A program made the translations under genes and the position numbers. Below, one piece after another: positions 185-59,620 of a stretch of 64,000 bases of DNA. Location: UHGV virus genome UHGV-0248979; one strand, given 5' to 3'. A model generated the notes under the pieces. It was not told where the DNA came from. It searched no databases and saw only the letters and a program-made list of their open reading frames with translations. Source of the stretch: a virus. The stretch's first letter is position 1. Every line of letters begins with the position of its first letter.

Positions 185-210
185 GCCTCCTACCCTTTCG
201 GGTAGGAGGC
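185..210. terminator. GC-rich palindromic hairpin (putative intrinsic terminator)
   Basis: gcctcctaccc/gggtaggaggc stem, 4-nt loop, T-run on + strand after stem. Confidence 0.45.
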
Positions 211-219
211 TTGTTATTT

Positions 220-1860
220 TTATTCGATGTGGTGCGCCAGCATTGGCGACGCAGCTAAGTTTAGTGTATCTGTCGGTGTGCGACGTATCCAACGAATCAC
301 CAGCGGAGCGTCTAGCGGTACGCGGTAGTCGATAACCTTTTTATCCAACCACTCGTCTACGCTATAGGTGTAAACTTTACCCCCGACGTGGATTTCGAAG
401 TGTGTTGGTTCAGGCGGTTCAGACTCATTACGACGGTCGTACAACGGATAAATCGGTTCGTACAACAGCTTCAACCATTCTGCCTTAGAGGCCACTTTGT
501 TACTGACGTCGATTTCAGAATAATTGACGTTGGAGTATTTAAACTCCGCCCACACGTTTTCCCCATACTTCAAACCGTCTGGTAAGTATTCCAGAATGAA
601 GTTCGAGTTCAGTTCGTTACCTGGGTTTACAAGCGTAATGGCGAATGACTGAGACTGAATAAACGCACGGAATTTGCTGTCTACCTTACTAATATCGACC
701 TGGACGTTAAGACGTTGTTTAACACCCATCAATAACGGATCGAAGGTCGTGCCCGTGGTGTAGTTAACATGCGCCGTTGCATCGTAAACCTTACCGCGTG
801 TCAGGTTATACAGCAAGAAATCCAGACGATAGCCACGTGTGGCATCCAGCCATCTCGGCACAACGAAAAGTTTCATGCTGTAGGCACCATCGACCTGTTC
901 CGTTACCGCCGTATAGTTTTTCACAATGGTGTCACCTACGACATCGGTACCGCCGTAAGTTTCACCTCTGGATAACTTGTAGCTCAGTACACAAGGTAGG
1001 GTGTTACCTGAGTTAGACGCGATGTAGAACGTGTCGTGTGAACCCGCGTTACGTAATCCGTTGAATTTCACACGAGCCTGATCGATAGGTAGTCGTTTTG
1101 TGCCATCGCTGTACACAACGTCACACCAGAGCGGTATAGACTCGATTGGCATGTTGATTGGCAATGTCAGTGTGGTGCCGTCATTGTCTACCAAGAACGG
1201 CGACACCAACTTAATACCCAACACCGTACGTGCTGGCGTTTCTTGCGGCATTACCAGGTTCGTTTTGATGATGTGCGCGTGACCGATTTGCACCACGTTA
1301 CCGACGTCGGAGTAAACCGCGAACATACACTCTTCACCGTTTTCGACCTCAGCCAAGCAAGCACCAGGTAACGTTTGTTTAACGACACGCTCAGCACCCT
1401 CGACAGAAATCGTCTGGACTGGTAAGTAAGTGTATTTTAATTTACCGTCTTTGTAGTAGCCGGAAAGTATTTCAGCACTGTCGTCAACTTTACTGCCTCG
1501 GAAAATGCGCACCCCGTCCACATCCGGCCCTTCAAAGGTGAGTGCGTTATCCAACACCATTGTTGCCGGGAGTTTCGTAGAATCCACGTAGACACGATAT
1601 TTATCGCTACGCAGTGGGTAGTGACCGTTTAGACGGCCGTCTTGATTAGCCACACCCACGCCACCCCACGGTTCGGTTTCCCACGACGGTTTGGAGTAGT
1701 TAACGCTTACGACGATATCGAAACCAGAGGTGATATCGTTAACGATCAGATCTTTCGGGTTCGGTACGTATCCGGTTTGACGTTCCGGCGCATAGAGTTC
1801 TTCAGGACGCCATACACGAAACCCGCGATCCTTATTAATAATGTCGGTTGTTAAGGCCAT
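220..1860 (-). CDS. hypothetical protein, 546 aa, possibly virion-associated
   Basis: Long ORF packed tightly with neighbours in a structural-looking region; no recognisable motif. Confidence 0.6.
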   Translation of the reverse strand: MALTTDIINKDRGFRVWRPEELYAPERQTGYVPNPKDLIVNDITSGFDIVVSVNYSKPSWETEPWGGVGVANQDGRLNGHYPLRSDKYRVYVDSTKLPATMVLDNALTFEGPDVDGVRIFRGSKVDDSAEILSGYYKDGKLKYTYLPVQTISVEGAERVVKQTLPGACLAEVENGEECMFAVYSDVGNVVQIGHAHIIKTNLVMPQETPARTVLGIKLVSPFLVDNDGTTLTLPINMPIESIPLWCDVVYSDGTKRLPIDQARVKFNGLRNAGSHDTFYIASNSGNTLPCVLSYKLSRGETYGGTDVVGDTIVKNYTAVTEQVDGAYSMKLFVVPRWLDATRGYRLDFLLYNLTRGKVYDATAHVNYTTGTTFDPLLMGVKQRLNVQVDISKVDSKFRAFIQSQSFAITLVNPGNELNSNFILEYLPDGLKYGENVWAEFKYSNVNYSEIDVSNKVASKAEWLKLLYEPIYPLYDRRNESEPPEPTHFEIHVGGKVYTYSVDEWLDKKVIDYRVPLDAPLVIRWIRRTPTDTLNLAASPMLAHHIE

Positions 1861-1862
1861 GA

Positions 1863-7421: not shown

Positions 7422-8297
7422 ATGTCTATTAAAGAACGCATGATTTTACCTGACCAGGGCCTCCACGTCGATGGCGGCCAGTACGATATGGTTAACCCCT
7501 TCTCGTCTGGTCAAAACGGTCCGGTCGGTCAGGTTGGTAAGTTCGTTACCAACGCCCACCGCCTGCGTCGTAACGTAATCGCACGTGTGATGGAATTCCC
7601 TCGTTGGGTTGATTACATGCCGAACCCACAACTGTGGCGTCAGGCAATCAAATCGTTCATCGAGGTTCACACCACGATTACTGGTCTGGACAAATCCCTG
7701 AGTGCTGAGTACGTACAGACCCAGCAGGGACGTAACAACCGCGTTCAGTACGAAGCTGGACTGGTAACAGAAGCGCTGTCTTCTGTTACACACACTACCC
7801 CGGATAAACTGGGTAAAGTGTATCAGAACATGCTCTGGGCGTGGTTGGTTTACGGTGTTTGTGATCCGCACACTGGTCACCCTGGCCTGGCGGCAATCAA
7901 CCCGAACGTACCGGATCACCTGCCGGATATGTACAGCATGACCGTGCTGTATTTCGAACCGGATGCGTATCAGCGTAAACCGCAGAACGCATGGTGGCTG
8001 ACGAACATGGCTCCTGAATCTAACGGTCAGGATATCGGTGAACGTGACCCGAACACCGGACCTCAGACCAACGAACTGTCTATCACCTTCACCTCCCAGC
8101 AATGGACAGGTTGGGGTCCGATGCAGGCAGCTCAGAAAGAACTGGAGCGCATGAAGCTTTACGGTCTGCGTCCTTACGAACGCAAACTGTGGCTTACCCC
8201 GTCTCAGCAGACCAACGGTATCAACCCAGACGTCGATGCTACGGCTGGCGGTTATCGTTCTGTGTCCGATGAGCAGATGGCAAATCAGCTTCGTTAA
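7422..8297 (+). CDS. putative tail tube-like structural protein (size and position only)
   Basis: 291-aa ORF directly after the 685-aa ORF, ending at a bidirectional terminator. Confidence 0.3.
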   Translation: MSIKERMILPDQGLHVDGGQYDMVNPFSSGQNGPVGQVGKFVTNAHRLRRNVIARVMEFPRWVDYMPNPQLWRQAIKSFIEVHTTITGLDKSLSAEYVQTQQGRNNRVQYEAGLVTEALSSVTHTTPDKLGKVYQNMLWAWLVYGVCDPHTGHPGLAAINPNVPDHLPDMYSMTVLYFEPDAYQRKPQNAWWLTNMAPESNGQDIGERDPNTGPQTNELSITFTSQQWTGWGPMQAAQKELERMKLYGLRPYERKLWLTPSQQTNGINPDVDATAGGYRSVSDEQMANQLR

Positions 8298-8313: not shown

Positions 8314-8340
8314 TACCTACCTCCGTCAAGGAGGTAGGTA
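8314..8340. terminator. bidirectional intrinsic terminator hairpin
   Basis: tacctacctcc / gtcaa loop / ggaggtaggta, A-run upstream and T-run downstream; sits between convergent genes. Confidence 0.7.
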
Positions 8341-8344
8341 GCTT

Positions 8345-8923
8345 TTATTTTTCTTCTTTTTCCAGATGTTTACGGGCAGAAGAACGAATGATTAAGTTTT
8401 TCATCTGCATTAACAGCAGGAACGTAGAGAGTAAATCGAACGTGGTGGGCGGTGTGTTGGTGGCATCACCAGGATAAGCAACGCGCCACAGCGTTAGTTC
8501 TGCGCCACTATTTCCTTTTTCGTTACGTATAATATCGTTGTTGTGCAAGGTAATCAGTTCAGATTCCAACGATTCCAACACACTTTCACCGAATTCGATC
8601 AGTAAGAGTTGTTTGAAACGGATAACGTAACCGGCGACGATATTACCGGCAGAACTGCTACGTATTTCGGTTAAGAAACGCTGGTAGCCGTTGATGGTGT
8701 GTGGGATTGTTTCAGCAGGCCAACCCGCGATATGTGGAAACGCATCACCTAAAGTGGCTTCCATAGACAACGTAAAGACTTCACCGATTTGGTTAAGATG
8801 GCTAATGACTTCTGTACGGTTCATGACGTTAGGAAGCGGGGCAGGCCGTTCTGTATTCGGTTTTTCTTGAGCTATGGGATAGCCATCGAATAAGTTTTGC
8901 ATTGTTTTATCTCCTGAAATCAA
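8345..8923 (-). CDS. hypothetical protein, 192 aa
   Basis: ORF bounded by hairpin terminators on both sides. Confidence 0.5.
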   Translation of the reverse strand: MISGDKTMQNLFDGYPIAQEKPNTERPAPLPNVMNRTEVISHLNQIGEVFTLSMEATLGDAFPHIAGWPAETIPHTINGYQRFLTEIRSSSAGNIVAGYVIRFKQLLLIEFGESVLESLESELITLHNNDIIRNEKGNSGAELTLWRVAYPGDATNTPPTTFDLLSTFLLLMQMKNLIIRSSARKHLEKEEK

Positions 8924-8933: not shown

Positions 8934-8951
8934 GGCGGTCATAAGACCGCC
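8934..8951. terminator. hairpin with flanking A/T runs (putative terminator)
   Basis: ggcggtc / ataa / gaccgcc flanked by A-run and T-run. Confidence 0.4.
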
Positions 8952-11088: not shown

Positions 11089-11195
11089 TTTTTAATACTC
11101 CTTTAGGTTAAACAGTCGAATAGCGTGTAATTCTACAACGCTCACCTAAGTAAAATATATCTAAGATAATTTTCAATACGGTTAAAATAAAGGTG

Positions 11196-11224
11196 GGCTA
11201 GTCTATTCGATGAATAGACTAGCC
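11196..11224 (-). terminator. intrinsic terminator hairpin
   Basis: ggctagtctatt / cgatg / aatagactagcc; T-run follows on minus strand. Confidence 0.5.
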
Positions 11225-16172: not shown

Positions 16173-16219
16173 TCTCTTCTCCGGAGTTTATCAGGGTGGG
16201 AGCGACCCACCCCTCGAGA

Positions 16220-29216: not shown

Positions 29217-29236
29217 GGGGGTAGGTAACTACCCCC
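29217..29236 (+). terminator. hairpin after the giant gene (putative terminator or attenuator)
   Basis: gggggtag / gtaa / ctaccccc followed by tactttttag. Confidence 0.45.
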
Positions 29237-32034: not shown

Positions 32035-32058
32035 ACCTACCTCCGAAGGGAGGTAGGT
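32035..32058. terminator. bidirectional intrinsic terminator hairpin
   Basis: acctacctcc / gaag / ggaggtaggt with long A-run upstream and T-run downstream between convergent genes. Confidence 0.7.
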
Positions 32059-37147: not shown

Positions 37148-37161
37148 TTCCGATACCCGAT

Positions 37162-38055: not shown

Positions 38056-38087
38056 GATAATTCTCCTTTAGGGTAAAAAATGAAAAT

Positions 38088-38113
38088 ACCCTACTCCTGT
38101 CTAGGAGTAGGGT
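38088..38113 (-). terminator. intrinsic terminator hairpin
   Basis: accctactcct / gtcta / ggagtagggt; T-run follows on minus strand. Confidence 0.55.
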
Positions 38114-38118
38114 AGGTA

Positions 38119-41695: not shown

Positions 41696-41725
41696 ATCAC
41701 CTTGTTACAAGGGGTTACTGGTTTG

Positions 41726-42274: not shown

Positions 42275-42345
42275 AATTCACTCCTAAAGAATGTCTCACG
42301 TAGATAATATCTGTCTGACTTCTTTTTGAAATTGAGGTAGTAAGA

Positions 42346-44151: not shown

Positions 44152-44425
44152 TGTCTACCGCCTTACGTAAATTGGATAACGTTTCTGCTTCAAGCAGGTC
44201 AATCCAGTAGCTGATAGCTTCCGTGTTTTCAGGAAGTTCGGAACGTACTGGCGCATACCCGTAACGTACTAATAGATTCGAGTAATACTCAGCGACCTTT
44301 AAACAAAAGGATTCCAGATCGGGAAACGGAAGAGTGAAGGCTTCACGAAATTCGGCCGCTGTTTCTAAATTAACACTTGCCAATCCTTCACTTAAGCGTT
44401 CCACAATCTCCGTTTGATAACGCAT
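44126..44425 (-). CDS. hypothetical protein, 99 aa
   Basis: ORF overlapping neighbour by 26 nt. Confidence 0.4.
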   Translation of the reverse strand: MRYQTEIVERLSEGLASVNLETAAEFREAFTLPFPDLESFCLKVAEYYSNLLVRYGYAPVRSELPENTEAISYWIDLLEAETLSNLRKAVDNETRTSAA

Positions 44426-44439
44426 GATGACTCCTTAGG

Positions 44440-44463
44440 TCGGGTAGGGTTTACCCTACCCGA
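44440..44463. terminator. GC-rich palindromic hairpin
   Basis: tcgggtaggg / ttta / ccctacccga; T-run on + side overlaps the stop of the 44470 gene. Confidence 0.4.
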
Positions 44464-44469
44464 TCCTAT

Positions 44470-45966: not shown

Positions 45967-45981
45967 TTAGCGCTCCGATAA

Positions 45982-46281
45982 TTAACGATTCTTGGTCGGA
46001 AGAAGAAGACGGCGGTTGTGCCAGAATTCAAAGTAGGTCTCTACCCACTCAGTAACTTCTTCCGCATTTTCAGGATAAGGGTTTTCAATAGACTCGAAAC
46101 GGCGTTTGTTACGCTCGTCAATTTCCAGTTCCATAACACGTTTACCGCTCGGGCACGACGTTACGCTCAAGACTTTTCCAACTTGAATAGGCTTACCGTT
46201 CTGACCTTTTTTAACAGGGCTCAGATAAATTTCCGGTTCTAAACGCGGTGTGGTGTTTCGAGTCAGTAATTTGATTTTCAT
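45982..46281 (-). CDS. hypothetical protein, 99 aa
   Basis: ORF 16 nt downstream of the recombinase-like gene. Confidence 0.45.
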   Translation of the reverse strand: MKIKLLTRNTTPRLEPEIYLSPVKKGQNGKPIQVGKVLSVTSCPSGKRVMELEIDERNKRRFESIENPYPENAEEVTEWVETYFEFWHNRRLLLPTKNR

Positions 46282-46379
46282 CGAGCTTTACCTTTATGGA
46301 ATTGTCTCGGTCATAAGGTTTGGGTGAACTGTAAAAAGACTTTACTATGTAACCCTGACTTATAATCCGAGGTTTTAGA

Positions 46380-47135
46380 ATGAATGTAAATCCACTTGCA
46401 GCGTTATCTAGCTTCGCCGCTAAAGCGTCTGCAATCTTACCGAAAGGCTTTAGTGGCCCTCAACAAGAGATTGCATTAACCACTTATGACGAGATGTCGG
46501 ACGTTTCCAAGTGGATGCAACAAGAAAAATTCCTTCACTTTGCGGGAATGTTGGTTATCGTTCCACCTGGGTTTAATACCTACGTGATGGATCATTTGAA
46601 CCGCTTAGAATCCGTATGGAGTTCACTGCAAAACATTTATACGGGTATTCTGTTCCCGGTCGATAAACAACTTTCGGCCCTTACACATGATGTGGGTGTA
46701 CTGTCATTACCGATTGGTTTCCGTTACAAAAATGTTAATATACCTTTACGTAACGTTAACCCGAAAGATCTGGTTAACTTGTTAGCGAAATCGTACACTA
46801 ACAACGTTATTGACCAGCGACCAATCGAGAAGACGTATCACAGCGCGTCCGAAATTGATGTTGCGTTCAATCGTGCTAAGGCACTGAACGTTGAAATCAC
46901 AAAACGTCTACGGACAAACATCGACAAGTCAATCGAGTCTATTCGCACTACGTCAGAAATCTTGTCAGAACAAAACATTCATCCGAATGTAGCAAAAGAA
47001 CTGACGATGATGTTAGATTTTGCTTCCGATTGGGTGGAGCTGTTTGGTTTGTTCATGAAACAGGTTAACGAATTAATCGAATGCCTGAACGTTACTGCCG
47101 AACGCTTAAAAGCGCTTAAGGCAAACAAAAAATAA
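46380..47135 (+). CDS. hypothetical protein, 251 aa
   Basis: + strand ORF ending at a bidirectional terminator. Confidence 0.5.
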   Translation: MNVNPLAALSSFAAKASAILPKGFSGPQQEIALTTYDEMSDVSKWMQQEKFLHFAGMLVIVPPGFNTYVMDHLNRLESVWSSLQNIYTGILFPVDKQLSALTHDVGVLSLPIGFRYKNVNIPLRNVNPKDLVNLLAKSYTNNVIDQRPIEKTYHSASEIDVAFNRAKALNVEITKRLRTNIDKSIESIRTTSEILSEQNIHPNVAKELTMMLDFASDWVELFGLFMKQVNELIECLNVTAERLKALKANKK

Positions 47136-47149
47136 AAAAGTAAAGCTAC

Positions 47150-47173
47150 CCCTAGACCACACGGTCTAGGGGT
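47150..47173. terminator. bidirectional intrinsic terminator hairpin
   Basis: cccctagacc / loop / ggtctagggg with A-run upstream and T-rich downstream between convergent genes. Confidence 0.6.
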
Positions 47174-47180
47174 AAACTAT

Positions 47181-48080
47181 TTATTTCCCACGATAAAATC
47201 CAGAGATGTAGCTTGGCGCTATCCATCGCCATTCGCGCCAACGCATTTCTGACATTTTACCACACCATACACGCTTCCAATGAGCACGACGGATATGTGC
47301 TGCGCAATAAATCGCCAAACAAACCTCGTGTCCCTCCTTGCGTTGTTGTTCTATATCTTCCCATTGTACCGGACTTACGTCTAAAACGACCGCTTCACTA
47401 CGTGGGCGAATCTCTGTATCAGGAACATAACGAATGGTCCTCCCGCGAAATTCTTTCTTCTCACGTTCAGTTCGTTTAATTCGCGATGAAAGATATAGTC
47501 CGATATAGACGGCGTCGAGTAGTCGTTGATTCTCCTTAACCGAAGTAAGGAGCGGCTTTAACTCCACGAAATCATCATTACTTTTATCGATCGTGTAAAT
47601 CTCAAACTCCATGTATACCGACTCGTCATGTTCTTCGCATGACATCACAAAGAGAACTTCTTCACCTTCGTAAAGACGTCTTCCGATAAATAACGTGATT
47701 GGACATTCGTCGAGATTTACGGTAACCGAGAAAGTAAATGAAGGGATGGTTTCTATCCAGAAGTACGGGATATTTTTTAGTCTCTCAGTTTTTGCTAAGA
47801 GCGCCATCAGTTCTTCATCCGAGATGATTTCAACAGCAGCGTATTGCCATCCTAGTCCCAGGGACTGCTTAATCAGTCTGGGAATCTGTTCGGTAACGCC
47901 ATATTCACGATAGGTCGGATCTTTAACTGGCATAAACGTTACGGGTATTTGTCGTTTATGCTCGTTAATGAACCGAATAAAACGGCACTGATCTAATCCG
48001 TGAATTGTTTGGTGTGCTTTTTCTATCTGTTCGCTCATGCGTCTTAGCGCTTTCCCGTAAAGTCTATTATTCGTTGTCAT
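47181..48080 (-). CDS. hypothetical protein, about 300 aa, with C-terminal His/Arg/Trp-rich motif (paralog A)
   Basis: Start moved to ATG at 48080 with AGGAG SD; C-terminal ...CAAHIRRAHWKRVWCGK...RWIAPSYISGFY. Confidence 0.55.
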   Translation of the reverse strand: MTTNNRLYGKALRRMSEQIEKAHQTIHGLDQCRFIRFINEHKRQIPVTFMPVKDPTYREYGVTEQIPRLIKQSLGLGWQYAAVEIISDEELMALLAKTERLKNIPYFWIETIPSFTFSVTVNLDECPITLFIGRRLYEGEEVLFVMSCEEHDESVYMEFEIYTIDKSNDDFVELKPLLTSVKENQRLLDAVYIGLYLSSRIKRTEREKKEFRGRTIRYVPDTEIRPRSEAVVLDVSPVQWEDIEQQRKEGHEVCLAIYCAAHIRRAHWKRVWCGKMSEMRWREWRWIAPSYISGFYRGK

Positions 48081-48105
48081 TTTAATGCTCCTAAACACTT
48101 TTAGC

Positions 48106-49032
48106 TTAATTGTGGGGTACGTAGCCACGGACAAATGTAGGTGGAATCCAACAAAGTTTTCTTTTTCTTTCCCCATCTCTTGGACCGACCCAATATCTGC
48201 GCCAGTGCGCGCGACGAATATGTGCGGCCTTGGCGTGTTTGATACCTTCCATGGTTTTCAAGTCGGTGTTAAATCCCTTTAGATATTTCACTTGTTCTGG
48301 TGTGATGTCTATTTTAACGTCACGTTCACGAGGTTTGATTTCGTGACTTATGCTACCATTCTTTTTGATTTCTTTGAACTTAATGTCATTGAAAGACCCT
48401 CTGAGATTGGGCGGGATTAGCGTACAGAGAAATATCAACGATATGGCGGTTTTGGCCAGTGATAACCATAACGTCTTCTCTTGTTCGGTCTGTACGCCAG
48501 TTGTATAATCGATTTCAACAAGCCCGTTTCCAACACTACATATCTCTAACGAGCAGGTGGCGATTGTGGTAACGCCTTCTGTTAACCCGTAATCAGTATT
48601 TGTAGCAATTATAATAAACCTTCTATTCCCATTTTTTCGATAACCGAGAAAGAAAGTCTCATCTTCTTTACCTACATCGATTGCTACAGTCCAAGTAGGT
48701 ATAAAGTCTAACCACTCTTCAGGGAATTTACTGGGCATCTCAGTCTCGAAAACAAGTTCTCTAAGTGCTCGATCGGATATTAAGGAAGCACCACCGTATA
48801 GCCATCCAATTGCCAATGTTTGAGCGTGAAGAGAACGGGGATCTTTGAGACCTAACTCAGCGTCGTAGGGTATAAAGGCATTAGTTAAATGCTTACGATT
48901 CTTTTTTATCCATTTCGAGACGGGATTTTCTTTTGTTTGATTTTCTTCCATGACATTTTCTAGATGCTGACTCCCCATTTGTCTAAGGCAGTCTTTAACA
49001 CCTTTTACTTTTTTACTTTTGTACAAATACAC
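48106..49032 (-). CDS. hypothetical protein, 308 aa, with C-terminal His/Arg/Trp-rich motif (paralog B)
   Basis: GTG start with AGGAG SD; C-terminal ...AAHIRRAHWRRYWVGP...LCWIPPTFVRGY. Confidence 0.55.
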   Translation of the reverse strand: MYLYKSKKVKGVKDCLRQMGSQHLENVMEENQTKENPVSKWIKKNRKHLTNAFIPYDAELGLKDPRSLHAQTLAIGWLYGGASLISDRALRELVFETEMPSKFPEEWLDFIPTWTVAIDVGKEDETFFLGYRKNGNRRFIIIATNTDYGLTEGVTTIATCSLEICSVGNGLVEIDYTTGVQTEQEKTLWLSLAKTAISLIFLCTLIPPNLRGSFNDIKFKEIKKNGSISHEIKPRERDVKIDITPEQVKYLKGFNTDLKTMEGIKHAKAAHIRRAHWRRYWVGPRDGERKRKLCWIPPTFVRGYVPHN

Positions 49033-49065
49033 GGTATATTCTCCTAAAATGGTTAAAAATAAAGT

Positions 49066-49087
49066 TACCCTAGCCGAAGCTAGGGTG
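49066..49087 (-). terminator. intrinsic terminator hairpin
   Basis: taccctagc / cgaa / gctagggtg; T-run follows on minus strand. Confidence 0.5.
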
Positions 49088-49091
49088 TCTA

Positions 49092-49580
49092 TTAGTCGAT
49101 TTTGACGTAGTCGGGATAGTTAGCTTTTAACCACTCCCATAGCTGTAAGGAAAGTAGGTTTTCACTACGTTCGATGATTTCCATGATATCTGCCACGTAA
49201 GACCCACCAATCCAAATTCGTCTATAAAAATTTTCCCATTCCGGTTCTGTATAGGGAACAATCGGTGTAGGAAATTTCTCTAAATTGTACGCATCGGTAA
49301 CTTTTCTTAAGAACTGATACCGGCAATCGCGAAGGCGTTGTCGAACGTCTGTTTCTGTTATGTGGTCGTTTGATGGATTGAAGAAATCAAACAGGTTAGC
49401 TGTGTATGCTATTATGCTCTGGCAACTGAAGTAGGCCGCAGCGTAATCTGCCATCCAAGGAGTGGAAGCAACCATTGGGGCCAACTTTTCTTCTATTTCT
49501 TTTCTTACACGCGCACCGTGATTGAGAAATTCATGCACAATATCACTTTTACTAAGATTGATAATATCATTTACGTTCAT
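49092..49580 (-). CDS. hypothetical protein, 162 aa
   Basis: ORF in operon. Confidence 0.5.
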   Translation of the reverse strand: MNVNDIINLSKSDIVHEFLNHGARVRKEIEEKLAPMVASTPWMADYAAAYFSCQSIIAYTANLFDFFNPSNDHITETDVRQRLRDCRYQFLRKVTDAYNLEKFPTPIVPYTEPEWENFYRRIWIGGSYVADIMEIIERSENLLSLQLWEWLKANYPDYVKID

Positions 49581-49581
49581 T

Positions 49582-50106
49582 TTACTGTCCTAAAATTGGG
49601 GTGAGTCTGTCTGCGGTGTTTAACAATGCTTTTGTAATTTCGTGGTTGGTCTCTTTTAGGATGGCGCAGCAGAGAGTGGTATAAACCTCGATTGCTAAAC
49701 CGATTTCTTGTTCAGTCAGACACGGTTCGGTGCCGCCAATCCCGTAACGCTGCGCTGCATACTCAATTTCAAGTTTCAAACGTTTTCGTAGTGCCTCGTC
49801 ATCAGTTAAACGCGCGCACGCCCGATCGAAACGTCTATTGTAAGCCTCGATCTTGTGGACAATTTCGCGTCGCAGTTGGTCGACCTTTACGTTATCATCA
49901 AGAGTGATGGTGACGTTGTCAACTAAACAGTAATGCACCGCGTGTCGTAAGTTGTGTAATGTGGCGGCAGTAACGACCCGCTCCTGATGGTCGCTAAAGC
50001 CGTGGGCACCACAGAGCTTGCGTGCAACCGCGCCAGAGATTTTCTCCTCTAACGCTATCGGCGTGGCAATGGTTGTTTTCTTACGAAGCTGAATTAAAAT
50101 ATCCAC
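49582..50106 (-). CDS. hypothetical protein, 174 aa
   Basis: GTG start preceded by CCTAAAGGAG. Confidence 0.5.
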   Translation of the reverse strand: MDILIQLRKKTTIATPIALEEKISGAVARKLCGAHGFSDHQERVVTAATLHNLRHAVHYCLVDNVTITLDDNVKVDQLRREIVHKIEAYNRRFDRACARLTDDEALRKRLKLEIEYAAQRYGIGGTEPCLTEQEIGLAIEVYTTLCCAILKETNHEITKALLNTADRLTPILGQ

Positions 50107-51430: not shown

Positions 51431-52099
51431 CTATCTAAGAATATTTTTAATGAAAAAAGGATCGGCTGTAAACTCCTTCACTTGTGAGTCATAACCCGAA
51501 TGTATTTGATCGCTACTGAGCAAATACTGGTCTAGGTCGTGCGGAAGAATCCAAGAATCACCTTGCTTAAAAATACCATAATCTGCTGTTCCTGCGGAAA
51601 AAATGATTTCCTCTGGAAACGAATAGACACGGCGTAAGGCAAGATCGGATGGCTTTAACACGATTAATCGAACGGGATGTTGACTGACTGCCTCTTTAAT
51701 AAACTGTTCACGATTAAACCAAATTATTTTTTCGGGGTAAGTTTCGAATTCAGCCCATGCCCGCGTGATAACTAATTTGGAAATCTTTCTCAATTCTTCA
51801 GAACGCTCTGCGTAGCCGATGCACTCCTTGCGTACTTCATGATTTTCTATCGATGTTGTGAATTTTTGGAATAGGTGTTGTTGGAAAAAGCCGTTCTCCG
51901 GGATATCACAACCCGCGTTGTATAGTGCAATGATCTCCCACAACAACGAAAGAGAAAACACAAATGCTAACTTTTCCACAACTTCCCAATCTTCGGAGTA
52001 AGGGGCTTTAAAGCCCCAATACTGCCGTGCGTTATACATAAAGTGAGTTTGTAAAAACCGAGGGGCTTTTGACAAGACCTCACTATAAACGATCAGCAT
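51431..52099 (-). CDS. hypothetical protein, 222 aa
   Basis: ORF overlapping the RNase H gene end by 7 nt. Confidence 0.5.
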   Translation of the reverse strand: MLIVYSEVLSKAPRFLQTHFMYNARQYWGFKAPYSEDWEVVEKLAFVFSLSLLWEIIALYNAGCDIPENGFFQQHLFQKFTTSIENHEVRKECIGYAERSEELRKISKLVITRAWAEFETYPEKIIWFNREQFIKEAVSQHPVRLIVLKPSDLALRRVYSFPEEIIFSAGTADYGIFKQGDSWILPHDLDQYLLSSDQIHSGYDSQVKEFTADPFFIKNILR

Positions 52100-53613
52100 T
52101 CAAGCTCCTTATCCGTCAATATTCGTTTGTTTGAATAATAGCCGCACCACAAACCATGATATTTTTCCCCGATATAAACCAACGCGTATTCGATATACTG
52201 CCGTTCTGGACGACGTACAGCCACGTAAAACCGCCCTTCCGGTTCTTTGATACGGTTGATTTCCGTACGCGTCGGTATGTCGATACCTCGAGTAAGGATA
52301 GCTTTAACCTTGTTTTTACTACCAGGGATCTTGATGGTTACGTCAAAACCTTTATCTACGTTACGATAAATGTCTTTCTTCGGCTTACCTTTCTCATCGT
52401 AAAGTACGTCAGTAATGTCATTCAACACTACTGAGTTTTTCCCTTCCATGGCATCGCGTAACCAACCTGCAAGCTCATCACGAATCGCAATACAACGATA
52501 AGATAATAGCGCAGGACGAAGAATTCGTGTAATCGAAAGATCTTCAAACATCCACAGGTTTTTGTCTTCACTAAAATGCATCCGATCGATAGGAATGCCG
52601 TTAGCAGCGGCTTCTGCGAACTTCTTGCGCTTTACGAATAAGTTAAAAACAACGGCGATTGGATCAAATTGACGTAAACGGGGCACCCCTTCCCACGCTT
52701 TCGCAGAATGGGTATTTACCAACTCGTATACGTTATCCCACGGTTCTTTGGTAAACATTACGCAGAATTGTGCATCTGGAATGTACTTACCAACGAAGAC
52801 GATATCATCCTTCTGTTTTGCGTGGTTTCCACCGAACATGTAATAAAGTTTATTACCGTTAACTGTAACAGTGGGGTGAGGCTCGTTCACCATCGGGTAA
52901 CAGAACTTCGTAACACAGATATCGGGAAAAGTGGACAAATTGACACCCTCACCAACAACTTCCGGTTGCTGTTCTTCCTCAGGCAGTTCGTCTTTTGACC
53001 AATACGGTGTATAGTCTAACCCCTCCCCTCGGGCAGAGATAATTGAGCCTTTCCGCGCTAACTCGTCTGCGCGTTCGTTTCCATAACGTCCAGAGTGGCC
53101 TTTAATTTTAAGGACACGAACACCTTTCCCTTCTTTCTTTAAGCGCTGTTTAACCACCCACATCCGTTGGATTAATTCCAGATTCGCAATAGGTGTACCG
53201 TCCGCACGACGCCAACCACGTGCTGCCCAACCATCAATCCAGTCGTTATACGTGTTGACAACGTAAGATGCGTCGATATAGATAACGTAGTTTTTGGCAA
53301 CGAAGGGGGCGTGTTCGAAGACGGTCAGGAAAGCCACGAGTTCTGCAACGTCGGAGTGTGACATTTTTGGTACAGGAACAACTCCGTCAATAAACTCCAC
53401 GGTTTCTGGTAAAGGCGGAAGTTTTTCATCTTTGTTTATCTGGCGGTATCCTGACGTCGTAATCCCCTCGGGAATAGTGGGATGGCGGTAAACCCGACCA
53501 TCCTCAATCGCTTCACGATTAAATAAGTATCCATGAATCCCCGCCCCTGTACCGAGCGGGGAAGTCAAATGGCTACCGTCCGTGTAAATTACTGCAACAT
53601 CAACGTTCTTCAT
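52093..53613 (-). CDS. RNase HI domain protein fused to a ~330-aa C-terminal region of unknown function
   Basis: N-terminal ...VAVIYTDGS...IDASYVVNTYNDWIDGWAARGW...KIKGHSGRYGNERADELARKG matches RNase HI catalytic motifs. Confidence 0.7.
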   Translation of the reverse strand: MKNVDVAVIYTDGSHLTSPLGTGAGIHGYLFNREAIEDGRVYRHPTIPEGITTSGYRQINKDEKLPPLPETVEFIDGVVPVPKMSHSDVAELVAFLTVFEHAPFVAKNYVIYIDASYVVNTYNDWIDGWAARGWRRADGTPIANLELIQRMWVVKQRLKKEGKGVRVLKIKGHSGRYGNERADELARKGSIISARGEGLDYTPYWSKDELPEEEQQPEVVGEGVNLSTFPDICVTKFCYPMVNEPHPTVTVNGNKLYYMFGGNHAKQKDDIVFVGKYIPDAQFCVMFTKEPWDNVYELVNTHSAKAWEGVPRLRQFDPIAVVFNLFVKRKKFAEAAANGIPIDRMHFSEDKNLWMFEDLSITRILRPALLSYRCIAIRDELAGWLRDAMEGKNSVVLNDITDVLYDEKGKPKKDIYRNVDKGFDVTIKIPGSKNKVKAILTRGIDIPTRTEINRIKEPEGRFYVAVRRPERQYIEYALVYIGEKYHGLWCGYYSNKRILTDKELEC

Positions 53614-54405: not shown

Positions 54406-54435
54406 CCCTCCTGTACCTCGAAGGGTACAGGAGGG
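54406..54435 (-). terminator. intrinsic terminator hairpin
   Basis: ccctcctgtacc / tcgaa / gggtacaggaggg; A-rich on + side upstream gives T-run on minus strand. Confidence 0.6.
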
Positions 54436-56804: not shown

Positions 56805-57428
56805 ATGGCTACGCGTTTACCACTACAGGTACCAGTCAACACCACGGGTCTGTTTAAAGTAAAAACACCATTTACTTTAGCCGAGACAGTCATTTATACG
56901 GTAGAGGCATCGCGTACCTTCCCAGATTTAGTACGTCAGAATATCGACGTTTATAATTCGTATTACCAGCCAGCAGGGCTAGGGCGTGAAGAATATTTAG
57001 CAGATGCGAATGTTAGTGCGTCGATTTTGACATTTAAATCTCGTGATGGTCAAGTTGTATACATACCTGACACCTACCTGGAATCGTACCCAGGTTTATC
57101 CGGGATCACGTATCAACGAAATGTGTTAGTGGTAGATTTGGCACTAGTACCGGATTACGTGAAAGTGTCGTCTATAACAAAAGACGTTTCAGATATTCTC
57201 ACGCATACTCTGGGGATTGAACCGAAAGTTGAAATTACAACTCTCGAGTATGAGGGGAAGGTAACGGAGGAACAACACTTGCAGATGGAAGCGGCACGAA
57301 AAAATAAAATTCGTGAGTCTATTCCGTTGGGCGAGAAAGTTGCTGCGTTGACAGAAGAAAACAAAAAATTAAAAGAGTTAAACAACCAAATGTTAGAGAT
57401 TCTTAAAGCTAACGGGTTAGTTAACTAA
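56805..57428 (+). CDS. hypothetical protein, 207 aa, C-terminal coiled-coil-like region
   Basis: ORF 3 nt after previous gene; ends at a terminator. Confidence 0.5.
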   Translation: MATRLPLQVPVNTTGLFKVKTPFTLAETVIYTVEASRTFPDLVRQNIDVYNSYYQPAGLGREEYLADANVSASILTFKSRDGQVVYIPDTYLESYPGLSGITYQRNVLVVDLALVPDYVKVSSITKDVSDILTHTLGIEPKVEITTLEYEGKVTEEQHLQMEAARKNKIRESIPLGEKVAALTEENKKLKELNNQMLEILKANGLVN

Positions 57429-57435: not shown

Positions 57436-57461
57436 TACCCTACTCCTTCGGGAGTAGGGTA
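57436..57461. terminator. bidirectional intrinsic terminator hairpin
   Basis: taccctactcc / ttcg / ggagtagggta with A-run upstream and T-run downstream. Confidence 0.7.
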
Positions 57462-57470: not shown

Positions 57471-58019
57471 TTAAATGTCGACTTCTAGTTTACGGTAATC
57501 GATGACGCCTTGAGCAATCATAGCAGCAACATCGTTCCAAGTACGAAAAATGAAGTAAACGGTATCCCCGTTTAAATAGATATTGGATTCTTTATCCGGG
57601 AAATCATCTTCGCTAAGGTAATAGTAGGGCCTGTCGAATGGGAAGTCGCGTTCATCAGAGGAGCCAAGTACCGCATAACGATTGCCACAATCAAACAGAA
57701 TCTTCCAACCAGACATTTCACTATTAATGTCAATACGATCGGCGATTTCAACGGTAATAGGGGAATGATCAAGAAAACTGATTGTAATATCACCGTTATA
57801 ACGCTTGAATCGCCAAATATCTGTAGGTACGATTTCAGACGCCGCTATAAGGGAATAAAGTTGTGTTGAGGTGATCTTTTTGTAAACGTTAGTTCCATCT
57901 CCAAAATGGTTATATAAGAAATTAGCCAGGAAATTTATATCCTTTAAACGTGTGCGGAAAACAGAACCACGGCGAATACCGTAAGCCAGATGAGTTAAAT
58001 ATTCAGACGATGGAAACAT
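57471..58019 (-). CDS. hypothetical protein, 182 aa (paralog family, member 1)
   Basis: N-terminus FPSSEYLTHLAYGIRRGSVFRTRLKDINFLANFLYNHF resembles that of the 58081 gene. Confidence 0.5.
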   Translation of the reverse strand: MFPSSEYLTHLAYGIRRGSVFRTRLKDINFLANFLYNHFGDGTNVYKKITSTQLYSLIAASEIVPTDIWRFKRYNGDITISFLDHSPITVEIADRIDINSEMSGWKILFDCGNRYAVLGSSDERDFPFDRPYYYLSEDDFPDKESNIYLNGDTVYFIFRTWNDVAAMIAQGVIDYRKLEVDI

Positions 58020-58050: not shown

Positions 58051-58073
58051 CCCTACTCCCGGAGGAGTAGGGG
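58051..58073 (-). terminator. intrinsic terminator hairpin
   Basis: ccctactcc / cgga / ggagtagggg; T-run follows on minus strand. Confidence 0.55.
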
Positions 58074-58080: not shown

Positions 58081-59025
58081 TTATTTTTTGGTTTGGCCCA
58101 GCTTTTCAAGAACCAGTTCACGAATGTACTTTTGAGTACGTTTCTTCGGTGGTAAAGCCATAAGTGTGTCAACAATTTCCTGGCCACCGATAACCTTGCT
58201 GACGAGTTGTTGAACTTGGAAGAGTTCTGCTTCTTCGTCGCTAATTTCGTTAGCTTGGTCTTTCTGACACAATGCTTCTACCAGGTCAGCTACGGATATT
58301 TCATTTTCGTCACCAGGGAAATCCAGGTTTAACGATTCGAAAACATCGCGTTTAACGAGCACAGATTTCAGATCGTCGTAGTTTTCACAGACGGCGACTT
58401 CTGTGCCAGGTACCGCCGGTTCATTGTACGCAGCAAACAAATCTTCCATTACTTTCTGATTGTGCTCTACTTTCAAAGCGTGGAAAGTTTTGGAGGCGCT
58501 GGTTAAAACGTAACCAATTTGCGGCCAGCTGCTCAGAATGAAGCAAACCGTGTTTCCAGTTAGACCGATATTGCCCTGACGTGCGTCAAAAAAGATTTCT
58601 TCGGTGCGAGAAATCTGTCCAAGTTCGAAATAGGTTTCTTTTTTGGCCGCGACGACTTCATACTGATTCTTACCCTGCTCTACAACAACTAACCAGTTAC
58701 CAAGAATTTCGTGTTGGTAGTTTGATACGGAAAGTGACTCGTTGCCCGCGTGCGGCTTAATGTCAATGGACGCCCGACGCATACCCATTGAGAAGTTGAA
58801 CTTAACCCCGTCATGATACGCTGAGGCGTAGTCGATCGGGATAATTTCCGAGACACGTTCGATATCCATAATTGTTTCCTGCGTAACACATGCAGGATCG
58901 GTACCAATTAGATAATTATACAGAAAGTCGGCTGTAACATCTACTGATTTCCGGAAGATTGGGAAATTATGGCTGCGACGGAAAATGTTAGCCAGTGTGT
59001 AAATTACTTCAGATGGAAAAGTCAT
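58081..59025 (-). CDS. hypothetical protein, 314 aa (paralog family, member 2)
   Basis: N-terminus FPSEVIYTLANIFRRSHNFPIFRKSVDVTADFLYNYL. Confidence 0.5.
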   Translation of the reverse strand: MTFPSEVIYTLANIFRRSHNFPIFRKSVDVTADFLYNYLIGTDPACVTQETIMDIERVSEIIPIDYASAYHDGVKFNFSMGMRRASIDIKPHAGNESLSVSNYQHEILGNWLVVVEQGKNQYEVVAAKKETYFELGQISRTEEIFFDARQGNIGLTGNTVCFILSSWPQIGYVLTSASKTFHALKVEHNQKVMEDLFAAYNEPAVPGTEVAVCENYDDLKSVLVKRDVFESLNLDFPGDENEISVADLVEALCQKDQANEISDEEAELFQVQQLVSKVIGGQEIVDTLMALPPKKRTQKYIRELVLEKLGQTKK

Positions 59026-59078
59026 TTTAATAGTCCTCTTTTAGGTTTGTTCAAATCAACTAAGGGTTATGTAAAAAG

Positions 59079-59558
59079 TTAAAACAGTGGTAAGTTACGC
59101 CATTGACCTACCGAGTAAAAAGCTTTTGGATGTTTGCGGATATACGCTTTCGCTTCTTCTGGCAACCAACGATCGCCTACCAGTTTTTGTTGCGCAACAA
59201 TTACCGCCAACAGTAAATACGGGTTTTTCGCACCGGGGAACTTTGCATTGGTTTCTAGCGCAATATCTAACATTGACGACCAGCCCAGTAATTTACGTTG
59301 CGCCGGTAAACGTCCTTCAATAAACATTAGCCAGTCCATGATTTGTCTGGGTTTATACGGACACGTATAATTCGCCCAACTCACCATGGCGAACTTAATA
59401 GCCTTCGCAATAACCCATACAGGAACTGCCACGAAAAGACAGAAAATGGTCAACTGTGAGGCAGGTGCATCGATAAAAGTAACCGCTACAAGAACCATAC
59501 ACAGTTCAAGCACCACAAACCAAAAACGTGTTGGATAACGCCAAATGAATTTTATCAT
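59079..59558 (-). CDS. membrane protein with two predicted TM helices (holin-like candidate)
   Basis: Hydrophobic segments FWFVVLELCMVLVAVTFI and LTIFCLFVAVPVWVIAKAI. Confidence 0.45.
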   Translation of the reverse strand: MIKFIWRYPTRFWFVVLELCMVLVAVTFIDAPASQLTIFCLFVAVPVWVIAKAIKFAMVSWANYTCPYKPRQIMDWLMFIEGRLPAQRKLLGWSSMLDIALETNAKFPGAKNPYLLLAVIVAQQKLVGDRWLPEEAKAYIRKHPKAFYSVGQWRNLPLF

Positions 59559-59590
59559 ATCTCTGTTCCTTTAGGGAATGAAAATAAAAT

Positions 59591-59620
59591 TACCCCTTAC
59601 TCCGTAAAGGGTAAGGGGTA
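59591..59620 (-). terminator. intrinsic terminator hairpin
   Basis: taccccttac ... gtaaggggta; T-run follows on minus strand. Confidence 0.55.

What the first reader, a model, noticed from the sequence alone, without database searches (positions are those of the whole stretch)
185..59620. Family of near-identical GC-rich palindromic hairpins at gene ends
Seen: at least twelve hairpins with related stems built on CCCTAC(T)CC / GGAG(T)AGGG or ACCTACCTCC / GGAGGTAGGT and 4-5-nt loops (185-210, 8314-8340, 29217-29236, 32035-32058, 38088-38113, 44440-44463, 47150-47173, 49066-49087, 54406-54435, 57436-57461, 58051-58073, 59591-59620). Most are flanked by A and/or T runs and sit between convergent genes or between operons. 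Established: such structures act as Rho-independent terminators. Inference: the sequence conservation of the stems exceeds what termination alone needs, so they may also be RNA processing or stability elements or protein recognition sites.
Basis: partly seen in the sequence, partly recalled or inferred. Interest (0 to 1): 0.45.

Follow-up and report, generated by a model that had tools for sequence, protein, structure and literature searches.

The report
Jumbo-phage terminator hairpins with shared stems
The repeated GC-rich hairpins are the transcription-stop signals of a giant phiKZ-like phage; they share a clade-wide stem sequence, as already mapped experimentally in phiKZ and 201phi2-1, so the finding is real but mostly ordinary.

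Summary
All 12 hairpins exist (some coordinates are off by 1-3 nt) and far exceed chance. The window is part of an uncultivated phiKZ-like jumbo phage (Chimalliviridae) related to SPN3US and phiEaH2.

Ten hairpins share a pyrimidine-rich 5' arm close to (C)TACC(C/T)ACTCC paired with GGAGT(G/A)GGTA. Two (29217, 44440) have the opposite polarity, and their orthologues are GGGCGGG-type stems, so they are not true members.

Hairpins sit at 4 of 5 convergent gene junctions, at 0 of 5 divergent junctions, and at some co-directional gene ends. Ten of 12 have a T-run on the sense strand. Positions are conserved across genera, with compensatory stem changes. Sense-strand UUCG/GNRA loops (26 vs 0) show they act as RNA.

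Best reading: intrinsic, often bidirectional, terminators and 3'-end hairpins. Two conserved U-tract-less intercistronic hairpins are included.

The stem consensus holds across at least five genera and is tied to convergent junctions, which is more than a hairpin needs. This parallels the conserved terminator motif mapped by ONT-cappable-seq in phiKZ and 201phi2-1. The architecture is the same but the sequence differs (0 matches to the phiKZ motif).

Why the sequence is conserved is unresolved. Interest is modest.

The parts
185..210 (-). Intercistronic hairpin GCCUCCUACCC-GAAA-GGGUAGGAGGC between the virion-protein gene (220-1860) and the terminase large-subunit gene (start about 170). It has no U-tract on the sense strand and is followed directly by GAGGAG plus ATG.
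   Evidence: -24.8 kcal/mol. The position is conserved in phiEaH2, SPN3US, Machina, CR5 and IMG/VR relatives. Four stem pairs have changed on both sides and none on one side only. Sense-strand loops are GNRA or UUCG.
8314..8340 (.). Bidirectional terminator at a convergent junction (7422-8297 on + / 8345-8923 on -). Stem TACCTACCTCC, with an A-run upstream and a TTTTATTTTT tail downstream.
   Evidence: Orthologous hairpins in phiEaH2, SPN3US, Machina, CR5, L013 and L014 all have a pyrimidine-rich 5' arm.
29217..29236 (+). Unidirectional terminator after the 2387-aa virion gene. It has a G-rich 5' arm (GGGGGTAG), a GUAA loop and a CUUUUU tail. It is not a true family member.
   Evidence: (orthologues are GGGGGCA in phiEaH2 and (A)GGGGGTG in SPN3US, also G-first), 46, 55.
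32035..32058 (.). Bidirectional terminator at a convergent junction (31444-32007 on + / 32067-32924 on -). Its stem ACCTACCTCC is identical to that of 8314.
   Evidence: The orthologous sites in phiEaH2 and SPN3US carry an unrelated stem, CGAGTA(G/C)CCC. This points to copying or conversion within the genome.
38087..38114 (-). Unidirectional terminator between co-directional genes. Stem TACCCTACTCCT, sense-strand tail UUUUCAUUUUUU.
   Evidence: The stem is invariant in four close relatives while the loop varies.
44440..44463 (-). Intercistronic hairpin after the UvsX-like recombinase gene. It has a G-rich 5' arm (TCGGGTAGGG) and no sense-strand U-tract in this phage. It is not a true family member.
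   Evidence: All orthologues are G-first GGGCGGG-type stems with GNRA loops, and some have a T-run. A compensatory C-G to A-T change is seen in L029 and L030.
47147..47174 (.). Bidirectional terminator at a convergent junction (46380-47135 on + / 47181-48176 on -). Stem TACCCCTAGACC.
   Evidence: Orthologues in 14 relatives (67-100% UvsX identity) are all variants of (C)TACC(C/T)ACTCC.
49067..49086 (-). Unidirectional terminator. Stem ACCCTAGC, UUCG loop on the sense strand, tail AACUUUAUUUUU.
54406..54435 (-). Unidirectional terminator. Stem CCCTCCTGTACC, loop containing UUCG on the sense strand, tail CCUUUCUUUUU.
   Evidence: (the orthologues in phiEaH2 and SPN3US are also pyrimidine-first with UUCG on the sense strand).
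57436..57461 (.). Bidirectional terminator at a convergent junction (56805-57428 on + / 57471-58019 on -). It carries the consensus stem TACCCTACTCC and forms an extended palindrome AAAAG..CUUUU.
   Evidence: It is the best nhmmer hit. The stem is identical in five relatives while loops differ and are flipped.
58051..58072 (-). Unidirectional terminator. Stem CCCTACTCC, UCCG loop on the sense strand, tail UUAAUUCUUUUU.
59591..59620 (-). Unidirectional terminator. Bulged stem TACCCCTTAC(T)CC, tail AUUUUAUUUU.
   Evidence: -18.9 kcal/mol. The orthologue in relatives is CCCCTAATCC, with compensated changes.
8934..8951 (-). Non-family terminator hairpin GGCGGTC/GACCGCC with a long T-run on the minus strand.
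   Evidence: An orthologous hairpin is present in phiEaH2 and SPN3US.
11196..11224 (-). Non-family terminator hairpin with a 13-bp stem (GGCTAGTCTATTC). A conserved promoter-like block follows it.
16194..16212 (-). Non-family hairpin GGGTGGG-(UCGCU)-CCCACCC after the virion RNA polymerase beta-like gene. It has no U-tract.
   Evidence: The stem and the 5-nt loop are conserved in phiEaH2, SPN3US, Machina and CR5.

Best explanation
The window belongs to a phiKZ-like nucleus-forming jumbo phage (Chimalliviridae, SPN3US/phiEaH2 group) that encodes its own multisubunit RNA polymerases.

The hairpins act as RNA. They are intrinsic transcription terminators and 3'-end hairpins that delimit transcription units.
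- At convergent gene junctions the element is a symmetric module of an A-run, a 10-12 bp stem and a T-rich tail (often TTTTATTT). It stops transcription from both sides.
- Between co-directional genes it is a shorter unidirectional hairpin, usually with a UUCG or GNRA loop and a U-rich tail.
- A minority (185, 44440, and the non-family 16194) are position-conserved intercistronic hairpins without a U-tract. These more likely pause or attenuate the polymerase, or protect a processed 3' end.

Ten of the 12 belong to a clade-wide sequence family. The 5' arm is close to (C)TACC(C/T)ACTCC and the 3' arm to GGAGT(G/A)GGTA. This is the SPN3US-group counterpart of the conserved terminator motif (CCYCCCC...GGGRRGG...TTAT) mapped at transcript 3' ends in phiKZ and 201phi2-1.

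Shown here: existence, enrichment, placement, RNA-level strand asymmetry, positional conservation with compensatory change, and cross-genus sequence consensus.

Inferred by analogy: that transcripts actually end at these hairpins.

Unresolved: why the stem sequence, and not only the structure, is conserved. Candidate explanations are a requirement of the phage polymerases, fast and unambiguous folding with the C-rich arm transcribed first, copying between sites, or a combination of these.
For: Identity of the phage:
- PHROG and Pfam hits to the phiKZ tail sheath, virion RNA polymerase beta-like subunits and DUF7193.
- 81% amino-acid identity of the tail sheath to phiEaH2 and SPN3US.
- Collinearity with both genomes.

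Enrichment and stability.

Placement:
- All hairpins are intergenic. They occupy 4 of 5 convergent junctions and 0 of 5 divergent junctions.
- Ten of 12 have a sense-strand T-rich tail.

RNA-level function:
- Among 50 unidirectional intergenic hairpins in the window, phiEaH2 and SPN3US, the sense strand carries UNCG loops 20 times and their reverse complement 0 times.
- The same comparison for GNRA is 6 versus 0 (binomial p = 3e-8).
- The loop-closing pair is C-G in 25 of 25 convergent-site hairpins.

Positional conservation with compensatory change:
-.
- Formal count at site 185: 4 pairs changed on both sides, 0 on one side only, 93% of cells paired, 0 of 500 shuffles reach the covariation score.

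Sequence family beyond structure:
- A sequence-only profile built from the window's hairpins finds sites at E < 0.01 in phiEaH2, SPN3US and relatives at 67% identity.
- BLAST of one 42-nt element hits 161 places in 70 phage records. Nearly all belong to known jumbo-phage groups, with up to 9 places per genome. It hits no E. coli chromosome.
- The core motif is carried by 17 of 25 convergent-junction hairpins and 10 of 51 others (Fisher p = 8e-5). Polarity at convergent sites is 17 pyrimidine-first to 2 purine-first.
- One orthologous convergent site keeps variants of the consensus in 14 relatives.

Experimental precedent:
- phiKZ has 133 mapped termination sites. Sixty-one intrinsic terminators share BCCYCCCCHWWDGGGRRGGBYTTATKYYGT, 6 are bidirectional between convergent genes, and 9% of the terminators mapped across the six phages of that study are antisense.
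- In 201phi2-1 a similar motif occurs in 59 terminators, and 8 terminators were validated in vivo.
- My own census of phiKZ-like SL2 and 201phi2-1 loci shows the same design: a C-rich 5' arm ending in CTCC(C).
Against: - No transcript-end data exist for this phage or, as far as the searchable literature shows, for any SPN3US-group phage.
- Hairpins 185 and 44440 lack a U-tract on the strand of their flanking genes. Their only T-rich tail is antisense.
- The published phiKZ motif itself does not match anywhere in the window at up to 3 mismatches. The link to that family is therefore architectural, not by sequence.
- Termination does not explain why the stem sequence is held constant across genera.
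Confidence: 0.8

Rival explanations
1. The conserved stem is a sequence-specific recognition element read by phage machinery. The reader could be the virion or non-virion RNA polymerase, or a phage termination, antitermination, RNA-stability or nuclear-export factor. On this view the hairpins form a virus-specific 3'-end code rather than generic terminators.
For: - The stem consensus is kept across genera, at non-homologous sites, and with free loop sequence and length.
- Stems are about 97% identical in relatives whose flanks are about 75% identical.
- A loop-proximal CUCC/GGAG core is shared from phiKZ-like to SPN3US-like lineages.
- These phages transcribe inside a nucleus-like compartment from which host factors are thought to be excluded, and they must export mRNA.
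Against: - 201phi2-1 motif terminators work with host polymerase in uninfected cells, so no phage factor is required for termination itself.
- ChmC eCLIP in PhiPA3 found no motif and showed binding near start codons, not 3' ends.
- Many terminators in the same genomes use unrelated stems.
- Short-term stem invariance is expected from structural constraint alone.
- Copying between sites occurs (site 32035).
Confidence: 0.18
2. The hairpins are mainly mRNA 3'-end stabilisers or processing boundaries. They block 3'-5' exonucleases or mark endonucleolytic maturation of polycistronic RNAs, and are not sites where the polymerase stops.
For: - Hairpins 185, 44440 and 16194 have no sense-strand U-tract, yet their position is conserved across genera. 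They sit directly in front of the next gene's ribosome-binding site.
- All are very stable.
- Motif hairpins also occur among terminators classed as factor-dependent in 201phi2-1.
Against: - Ten of 12 carry the U-rich tail that defines intrinsic terminators.
- The convergent-junction modules are symmetric A-run/T-run elements.
- Equivalent elements in 201phi2-1 terminate transcription in reporter assays.
- The two roles are not exclusive.
Confidence: 0.12
3. The hairpins are DNA-level repeats. They could be REP/MITE-like mobile palindromes, binding sites for a dimeric DNA-binding protein, or recombination modules (like T4-type PeSL cassettes). In this case their similarity reflects spread or recombination rather than RNA function.
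For: - Near-identical copies occur at several sites per genome.
- Site 32035 appears to have been overwritten by the 8314-type stem.
- Loops are inverted between close relatives (tccg/cgga, ttcg/cgaa, ttttcg/cgaaaa), which is a DNA-level event.
- Six of 10 family hairpins abut genes without homologues in phiEaH2 or SPN3US.
- One block boundary lies at 57460.
Against: - Most sites are orthologous across genera, not recent insertions.
- Loop length varies from 4 to 7 nt with fixed stems, which fits a hairpin and not a fixed-spacing dimer site.
- There is a strict sense-strand UNCG/GNRA bias.
- Mosaic breakpoints between relatives mostly fall inside genes or at other boundaries.
- No conserved promoter accompanies the hairpins.
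- The element is absent from E. coli chromosomes.
Confidence: 0.05

Closest known systems
Conserved intrinsic-terminator motif of phiKZ (Putzeys et al. 2024, PMC10914365) and motif A of 201phi2-1 (Poppeliers et al. 2024, PMC11512511)
   Same: - Same virus family and the same phage-encoded polymerases.
- Many intergenic GC-rich hairpins with a C/pyrimidine-rich 5' arm, a G/purine-rich 3' arm containing GGAG, a short loop and a T-rich tail with TTAT.
- Bidirectional versions between convergent genes, and some antisense or U-tract-less instances.
- The motif is shared among many sites of one genome and between genera.
   Different: - The sequence differs. The phiKZ pattern has 0 matches in the window at up to 3 mismatches.
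- The SPN3US-group stem is longer (10-12 bp) and interrupted by A, as TACC(C/T)ACTCC, rather than a C-run.
- Here the consensus is concentrated at convergent junctions.
- No transcript mapping exists for this clade.
Canonical bacterial Rho-independent and bidirectional terminators
   Same: A GC-rich stem-loop followed by a U-tract. An A-tract upstream makes the element work in both directions. Located after stop codons.
   Different: Bacterial terminators of one genome do not normally share a stem sequence. Here a 10-nt consensus recurs within and between genomes, and two members lack the U-tract.
REP/BIME repeated extragenic palindromes of enterobacteria
   Same: Multi-copy, sequence-conserved imperfect palindromes at gene 3' ends that can stabilise upstream mRNA.
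   Different: - No RAYT-type transposase is evident.
- Sites are orthologous across genera.
- The element is absent from E. coli chromosomes.
- U-tracts and UUCG/GNRA loops point to terminator function.
PeSL (promoter-early stem-loop) cassettes of T4-type phages (recalled from memory: Arbiol et al. 2010; not checked here)
   Same: Repeated stem-loops flanking small novel genes in variable regions of large phage genomes.
   Different: No conserved promoter is attached to the hairpins. Mosaic breakpoints are not concentrated at the hairpins.

Membership tests
Intrinsic (Rho-independent) terminator | Stable GC-rich RNA hairpin | tested here: met
   Folding energies of -14.3 to -24.8 kcal/mol and z-scores of -3.0 to -7.8 for all 12. 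Hairpins are enriched over shuffles.
Intrinsic (Rho-independent) terminator | U-rich tract immediately 3' of the stem on the transcribed strand | tested here: inconclusive
   Met for 10 of 12, and on both strands for the four convergent-junction hairpins. Not met for 185 and 44440, whose T-rich tail lies on the antisense strand.
Intrinsic (Rho-independent) terminator | Located downstream of a stop codon at the end of a transcription unit; absent from promoter regions | tested here: met
   All are intergenic. They occupy 4 of 5 convergent junctions and 0 of 5 divergent junctions.
Intrinsic (Rho-independent) terminator | Transcript 3' ends map just after the hairpin | not testable with these tools
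   No RNA data are available for this phage or its clade. Such mapping exists only for phiKZ and 201phi2-1.
phiKZ/201phi2-1 conserved terminator motif | Host genome is a Chimalliviridae phage with its own multisubunit RNA polymerases | tested here: met
   Virion RNA polymerase beta-like genes at 16220-20386 and 20396-22015, a phiKZ gp29-type sheath and DUF7193. Collinear with SPN3US and phiEaH2.
phiKZ/201phi2-1 conserved terminator motif | Match to BCCYCCCCHWWDGGGRRGGBYTTAT | tested here: not met
   No matches in the window at up to 3 mismatches.
phiKZ/201phi2-1 conserved terminator motif | Architecture: C/pyrimidine-rich 5' arm, G/purine-rich 3' arm, short loop, T-rich tail containing TTAT | tested here: met
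   Ten of 12 have a pyrimidine-rich 5' arm. By my reading of the tails listed, TTAT occurs in 9 of the 15 sense-oriented tails. A CTCC-loop-GGAG core is shared with the SL2 and 201phi2-1 loci.
REP-like mobile extragenic palindromes | Copies inserted at non-orthologous sites; associated RAYT transposase; present in the host chromosome | tested here: not met
   Most sites are orthologous across genera. There are no hits in 5,426 E. coli chromosomes. No systematic transposase search was done; none of the window proteins scanned against PHROGs or Pfam is a transposase.
PeSL-type shuffling cassettes | Stem-loop coupled to a conserved promoter; recombination breakpoints at the stem-loops | tested here: inconclusive
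   No shared promoter-like motif was seen by eye in the sequences flanking the hairpins; no motif search was run. Identity profiles against four relatives show one boundary at 57460 and one near 49030-49180. Most breakpoints lie elsewhere.
Palindromic operator for a dimeric DNA-binding protein | Fixed spacing between half-sites; no strand-specific loop bias | tested here: not met
   Spacers vary from 4 to 7 nt with identical stems. Sense-strand UNCG plus GNRA loops outnumber their reverse complements 26 to 0.

The most novel reading that the evidence does not exclude
The stem sequence itself would be a signal specific to nucleus-forming jumbo phages. The candidate signal is the C-rich-first polarity with a CUCC...GGAG core, conserved from phiKZ-like to SPN3US-like phages and concentrated at bidirectional sites. 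It might be a termination or 3'-end code tuned to their non-canonical RNA polymerases or to an unidentified RNA-binding, export or stability factor. It might also be tuned to avoid R-loops, given that transcription is uncoupled from translation inside the phage nucleus.
Probability: 0.2. Interest if true: 0.6.

Novelty: new variant of a known kind. Interest (0 to 1): 0.3.

Why it matters
Practical value: the hairpins give a ready map of transcription-unit ends for an uncultivated E. coli-associated jumbo phage. They also provide compact, probably strong, bidirectional terminators for synthetic biology, as was done with 201phi2-1 terminators.

Conceptual value: a terminator stem consensus is maintained across at least five genera of SPN3US-group phages (Erskinevirus, Seoulvirus, Machinavirus, Derbicusvirus and this clade). 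It shares its design with phiKZ and 201phi2-1. This strengthens the case that Chimalliviridae terminators are under sequence-level as well as structural constraint. That makes one question testable: do their unusual multisubunit polymerases, or the uncoupled nuclear transcription, need a particular hairpin?

If the constraint turns out to be only folding kinetics or copying between sites, the finding is ordinary.

Tried and rejected
- Megablast of 10 kb against phages gave no hit. Identification needed protein and blastn modes.
- Rfam at gathering thresholds gave no match in the window. tRNA scan found none.
- The phiKZ consensus pattern has 0 matches.
- My first IUPAC consensus was mis-registered and found only 2 sites. 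I replaced it with an nhmmer profile.
- I did not build a covariance model. MAFFT alignments of the instances (A2) and of the 8314 orthologues (A4) were not in structural register. I used a sequence profile, my own hairpin census, and a formal pair count on the well-aligned site-185 set (A3).
- Recombination-module (PeSL-like) idea: identity profiles against four relatives show mosaicism. Breakpoints are mostly inside genes, with only loose coincidences at 57460 and about 49030-49180. Not supported.
- Host mimicry: the element is absent from E. coli chromosomes.
- ChmC as a binder: the published eCLIP shows no motif.
- The jumbo-phage review does not mention terminators.
- Supplementary terminator tables of the phiKZ paper are not held.
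- Literature searches for SPN3US-group transcript mapping found nothing.
- I looked by eye for a promoter attached to the hairpins. Only an extended Shine-Dalgarno sequence (CCTAAAGGAG) recurs.
Full report
**1. The observation**

All twelve hairpins are in the sequence.

An unbiased scan finds 26 perfect hairpins with stems of at least 8 bp and loops of 3-8 nt. Dinucleotide shuffles give 6.0 +/- 2.8. With at least 5 GC pairs the count is 17 against 1.2. With stems of at least 10 bp it is 10 against 0.7.

As RNA the hairpins fold at -14.3 to -24.8 kcal/mol, with z-scores of -3.0 to -7.8. All twelve lie between genes.

Folding every intergenic region shows four more strong hairpins with unrelated stems: 8934-8951, 11196-11224, 16194-16212 and 32941-32961.

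The stem similarity is not a by-product of composition. The mean longest common substring between 5' arms has z = 8.6 for the twelve. Both are measured against arm-wise shuffles. The similarity survives alignment.

Ten hairpins have a pyrimidine-rich 5' arm. Because the stems are perfect palindromes, this holds on both strands. The arms are built around (T)ACC(C/T)AC(T/C)CC. Hairpins 29217 and 44440 have the opposite polarity and align only through their 3' arm.

**2. What genome this is**

The large ORFs match the phiKZ-type tail sheath, virion RNA polymerase beta-like subunits, a 2387-aa virion protein with an SLT domain, and DUF7193.

- The tail sheath is 81% identical to those of Erwinia phage phiEaH2 and Salmonella phage SPN3US.
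- The polymerase gene is about 75% identical at the DNA level.
- Nothing in the phage collection matches by megablast.
- Gene order is collinear with phiEaH2 (94-158 kb) and SPN3US (170-240 kb), with protein identities of 23-95%.
- IMG/VR holds near-identical uncultivated genomes of 221-225 kb.

The window is therefore part of a new SPN3US-group member of the Chimalliviridae. These are phages that transcribe with their own multisubunit polymerases (for phiKZ).

**3. Placement and orientation**

- Four hairpins (8314, 32035, 47147, 57436) sit at four of the five convergent gene junctions. They are symmetric: an A-run, the stem, and a T-rich tail, often GCTTTTATTT.
- None of the five divergent junctions has a hairpin.
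- Six hairpins (29217, 38087, 49067, 54406, 58051, 59591) lie between co-directional genes, with the T-rich tail on the sense strand.
- Two (185, 44440) have no sense-strand U-tract and are followed at once by the next gene's ribosome-binding site.

**4. Evidence that they act as RNA**

I pooled the window, phiEaH2 (240 kb) and 70 kb of SPN3US, giving 50 unidirectional intergenic hairpins.

- Twenty carry a UNCG loop on the sense strand and none carries its reverse complement.
- GNRA loops are 6 versus 0. The combined binomial p is 3e-8.
- The loop-closing pair is C-G in 25 of 25 convergent-site hairpins.
- Loop length varies from 4 to 7 nt between copies with identical stems. That suits a hairpin and does not suit a fixed-spacing dimer site on duplex DNA.

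**5. Conservation**

The hairpins are position-conserved in phiEaH2 and SPN3US, and the stems change by paired substitutions.

At the site before the terminase gene (185), seven genomes give four stem pairs changed on both sides, none changed on one side only, and 93% of cells paired. No shuffle out of 500 reaches the covariation score.

Relatives with about 75% flank identity keep the stems about 97% identical. Variation falls in the loops and flanks.

Conservation also goes beyond structure:

- phiEaH2 carries ACCCTACTCC three times, CTACCCACTCC twice (plus two more stems ending in TACCCACTCC), TACCTACTCC twice, and other variants.
- A sequence-only profile of the window's hairpins finds E < 0.01 hits in phiEaH2, SPN3US and relatives at 67% identity, and finds no further sites in the window.
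- One 42-nt element hits 161 places in 70 phage records. These are SPN3US-like Salmonella phages and Erwinia jumbo phages, plus Vibrio, Edwardsiella, Ralstonia and Proteus phages and two unannotated faecal 'Bacteriophage sp.' contigs. It hits no E. coli chromosome.
- The convergent junction upstream of the recombinase operon carries a variant of (C)TACC(C/T)ACTCC in all 14 relatives examined. The most distant (67-69% identity) have ACCCTACTCC or CCCTACTCC.
- The core motif is present in 17 of 25 convergent-junction hairpins and 10 of 51 others (p = 8e-5). Polarity at convergent sites is 17 pyrimidine-first to 2 purine-first. Convergent-site stems are longer, at a mean of 10.5 bp against 8.7 bp.
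- Copying between sites also happens. Site 32035 carries the 8314-type stem, while its orthologues carry CGAGTA(G/C)CCC.

The two inverse-polarity hairpins are not members. Their orthologues are GGGGGYR and GGGCGGG-type stems.

**6. Comparison with what is known**

ONT-cappable-seq of phiKZ mapped 133 termination sites.

- Sixty-one intrinsic terminators share BCCYCCCCHWWDGGGRRGGBYTTATKYYGT.
- Six are bidirectional and lie between convergent genes.
- Nine per cent of the terminators mapped across the six phages of that study are antisense (PMC10914365).

In 201phi2-1, a motif resembling the phiKZ one occurs in 59 of 132 terminators. Motif hairpins occur among both intrinsic and 'factor-dependent' sites. 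Eight terminators worked in a reporter assay in uninfected Pseudomonas (PMC11512511).

My census of a phiKZ-like locus (SL2) and a 201phi2-1 locus shows the same design. The 5' arm is C-rich and ends in CTCC(C), the 3' arm contains GGAG, and TTAT-type flanks follow.

The window's hairpins share this architecture, but none matches the phiKZ pattern itself at up to 3 mismatches. They are best described as the SPN3US-group variant of a known kind of element.

I found no paper describing terminators in SPN3US-group phages.

**7. Mechanism**

Most likely (about 0.8): these are RNA hairpins that end transcription units.

- At convergent junctions the symmetric A-run/stem/T-run module stops polymerases from both sides.
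- Between co-directional genes, shorter hairpins with UUCG or GNRA loops act in one direction.
- The U-tract-less, position-conserved hairpins are 185, 44440 and the non-family 16194, whose 5-nt loop is conserved in five genera. They more probably pause or attenuate the polymerase, or protect a 3' end.

That transcripts actually end at these hairpins is inferred from the related phages. It is not shown for this one.

Why the sequence is conserved remains open.

- A phage-specific reader (polymerase or RNA-binding factor) is possible, at about 0.2. The host-polymerase activity of 201phi2-1 terminators weakens it. So does the absence of a motif in the ChmC eCLIP data.
- A kinetic explanation is plausible but speculative. 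If the C-rich arm is transcribed first, the G-rich arm is captured at once, which would limit misfolding or R-loops where transcription is uncoupled from translation (context).
- A DNA-level or mobile-repeat explanation is unlikely (section 4).
- The hairpins are not clear recombination boundaries.

**8. Verdict**

This is a lineage variant of a published phenomenon. The small new points are:

- the SPN3US-group consensus;
- its concentration at convergent junctions;
- its persistence across at least five genera;
- conserved U-tract-less intercistronic hairpins.

Interest is modest, at 0.3.

Noticed in passing
whole window; NZ_CP173450.1 (L044): A 221,873-bp circular 'plasmid' (p98232-contig_4) in the complete genome of a clinical E. 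coli (urine, Egypt) matches window 30000-50000 at 85% identity over 84% of the query. It carries the same hairpins. It is evidently a jumbo-phage genome of this clade, carried by or co-assembled with E. coli. This is a host clue and a possible carrier state.
   Followed up: partly
window 57436-57461, 58051-58072, 38087-38114; L015-L018, L029-L031, L044: Between close relatives the stems are identical but the loops are reverse-complemented (tccg/cgga, ttcg/cgaa, ttttcg/cgaaaa, agac/gtct-like). These are small inversions of the loop between the inverted-repeat arms.
   Followed up: partly
window about 11140-11162 (minus strand); phiEaH2 147965-148101; SPN3US 223200-223801 (L007 3200-3801): Downstream of the non-family terminator 11196-11224 lies an intergenic block conserved in three genera. 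On the minus strand it reads AGATATATTTTACTTAGGTGAG. It may be a promoter. The resemblance to the AT-rich phiKZ early promoter is from memory and was not tested.
   Followed up: no
window 16194-16212: The hairpin GGGTGGG-AGCGA-CCCACCC after the virion RNA polymerase beta-like gene is conserved, including its 5-nt loop, in phiEaH2, SPN3US, Machina and CR5. It has no U-tract and its role is unknown.
   Followed up: partly
window 58400-59050 and 49092-49620: Two genes (58081-59025 and 49092-49580) have patches only 43-70% identical to otherwise 98-100% identical IMG/VR genomes. These are local hypervariable or replaced segments. Gene 35975-36292 is absent from two relatives.
   Followed up: partly
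window 42346-42810 (+) / 42764-43486 (-): This is the only convergent gene pair without a hairpin, and the two genes overlap by 47 nt. The next plus-strand T-tailed hairpin is 44440, 1.6 kb downstream and antisense to three genes.
   Followed up: no
L026 (Cronobacter phage CR5) 21644-21669 vs window 47147-47174: The CR5 hairpin before the terminase gene is AGGTCTAGGGG-gcaa-CCCCTAGACCT. It contains the same 10-mer arms as the window's 47147 hairpin but with the arms swapped.
   Followed up: no
window 52093-53613 (-): A 506-aa protein with an RNase H domain (phrog_3265, phrog_531). By its PHROG hits, length and conserved position it is probably the homologue of the Chimalliviridae RNase H-clamp protein Rhc described in Goslar; no direct comparison was made.
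   Followed up: no
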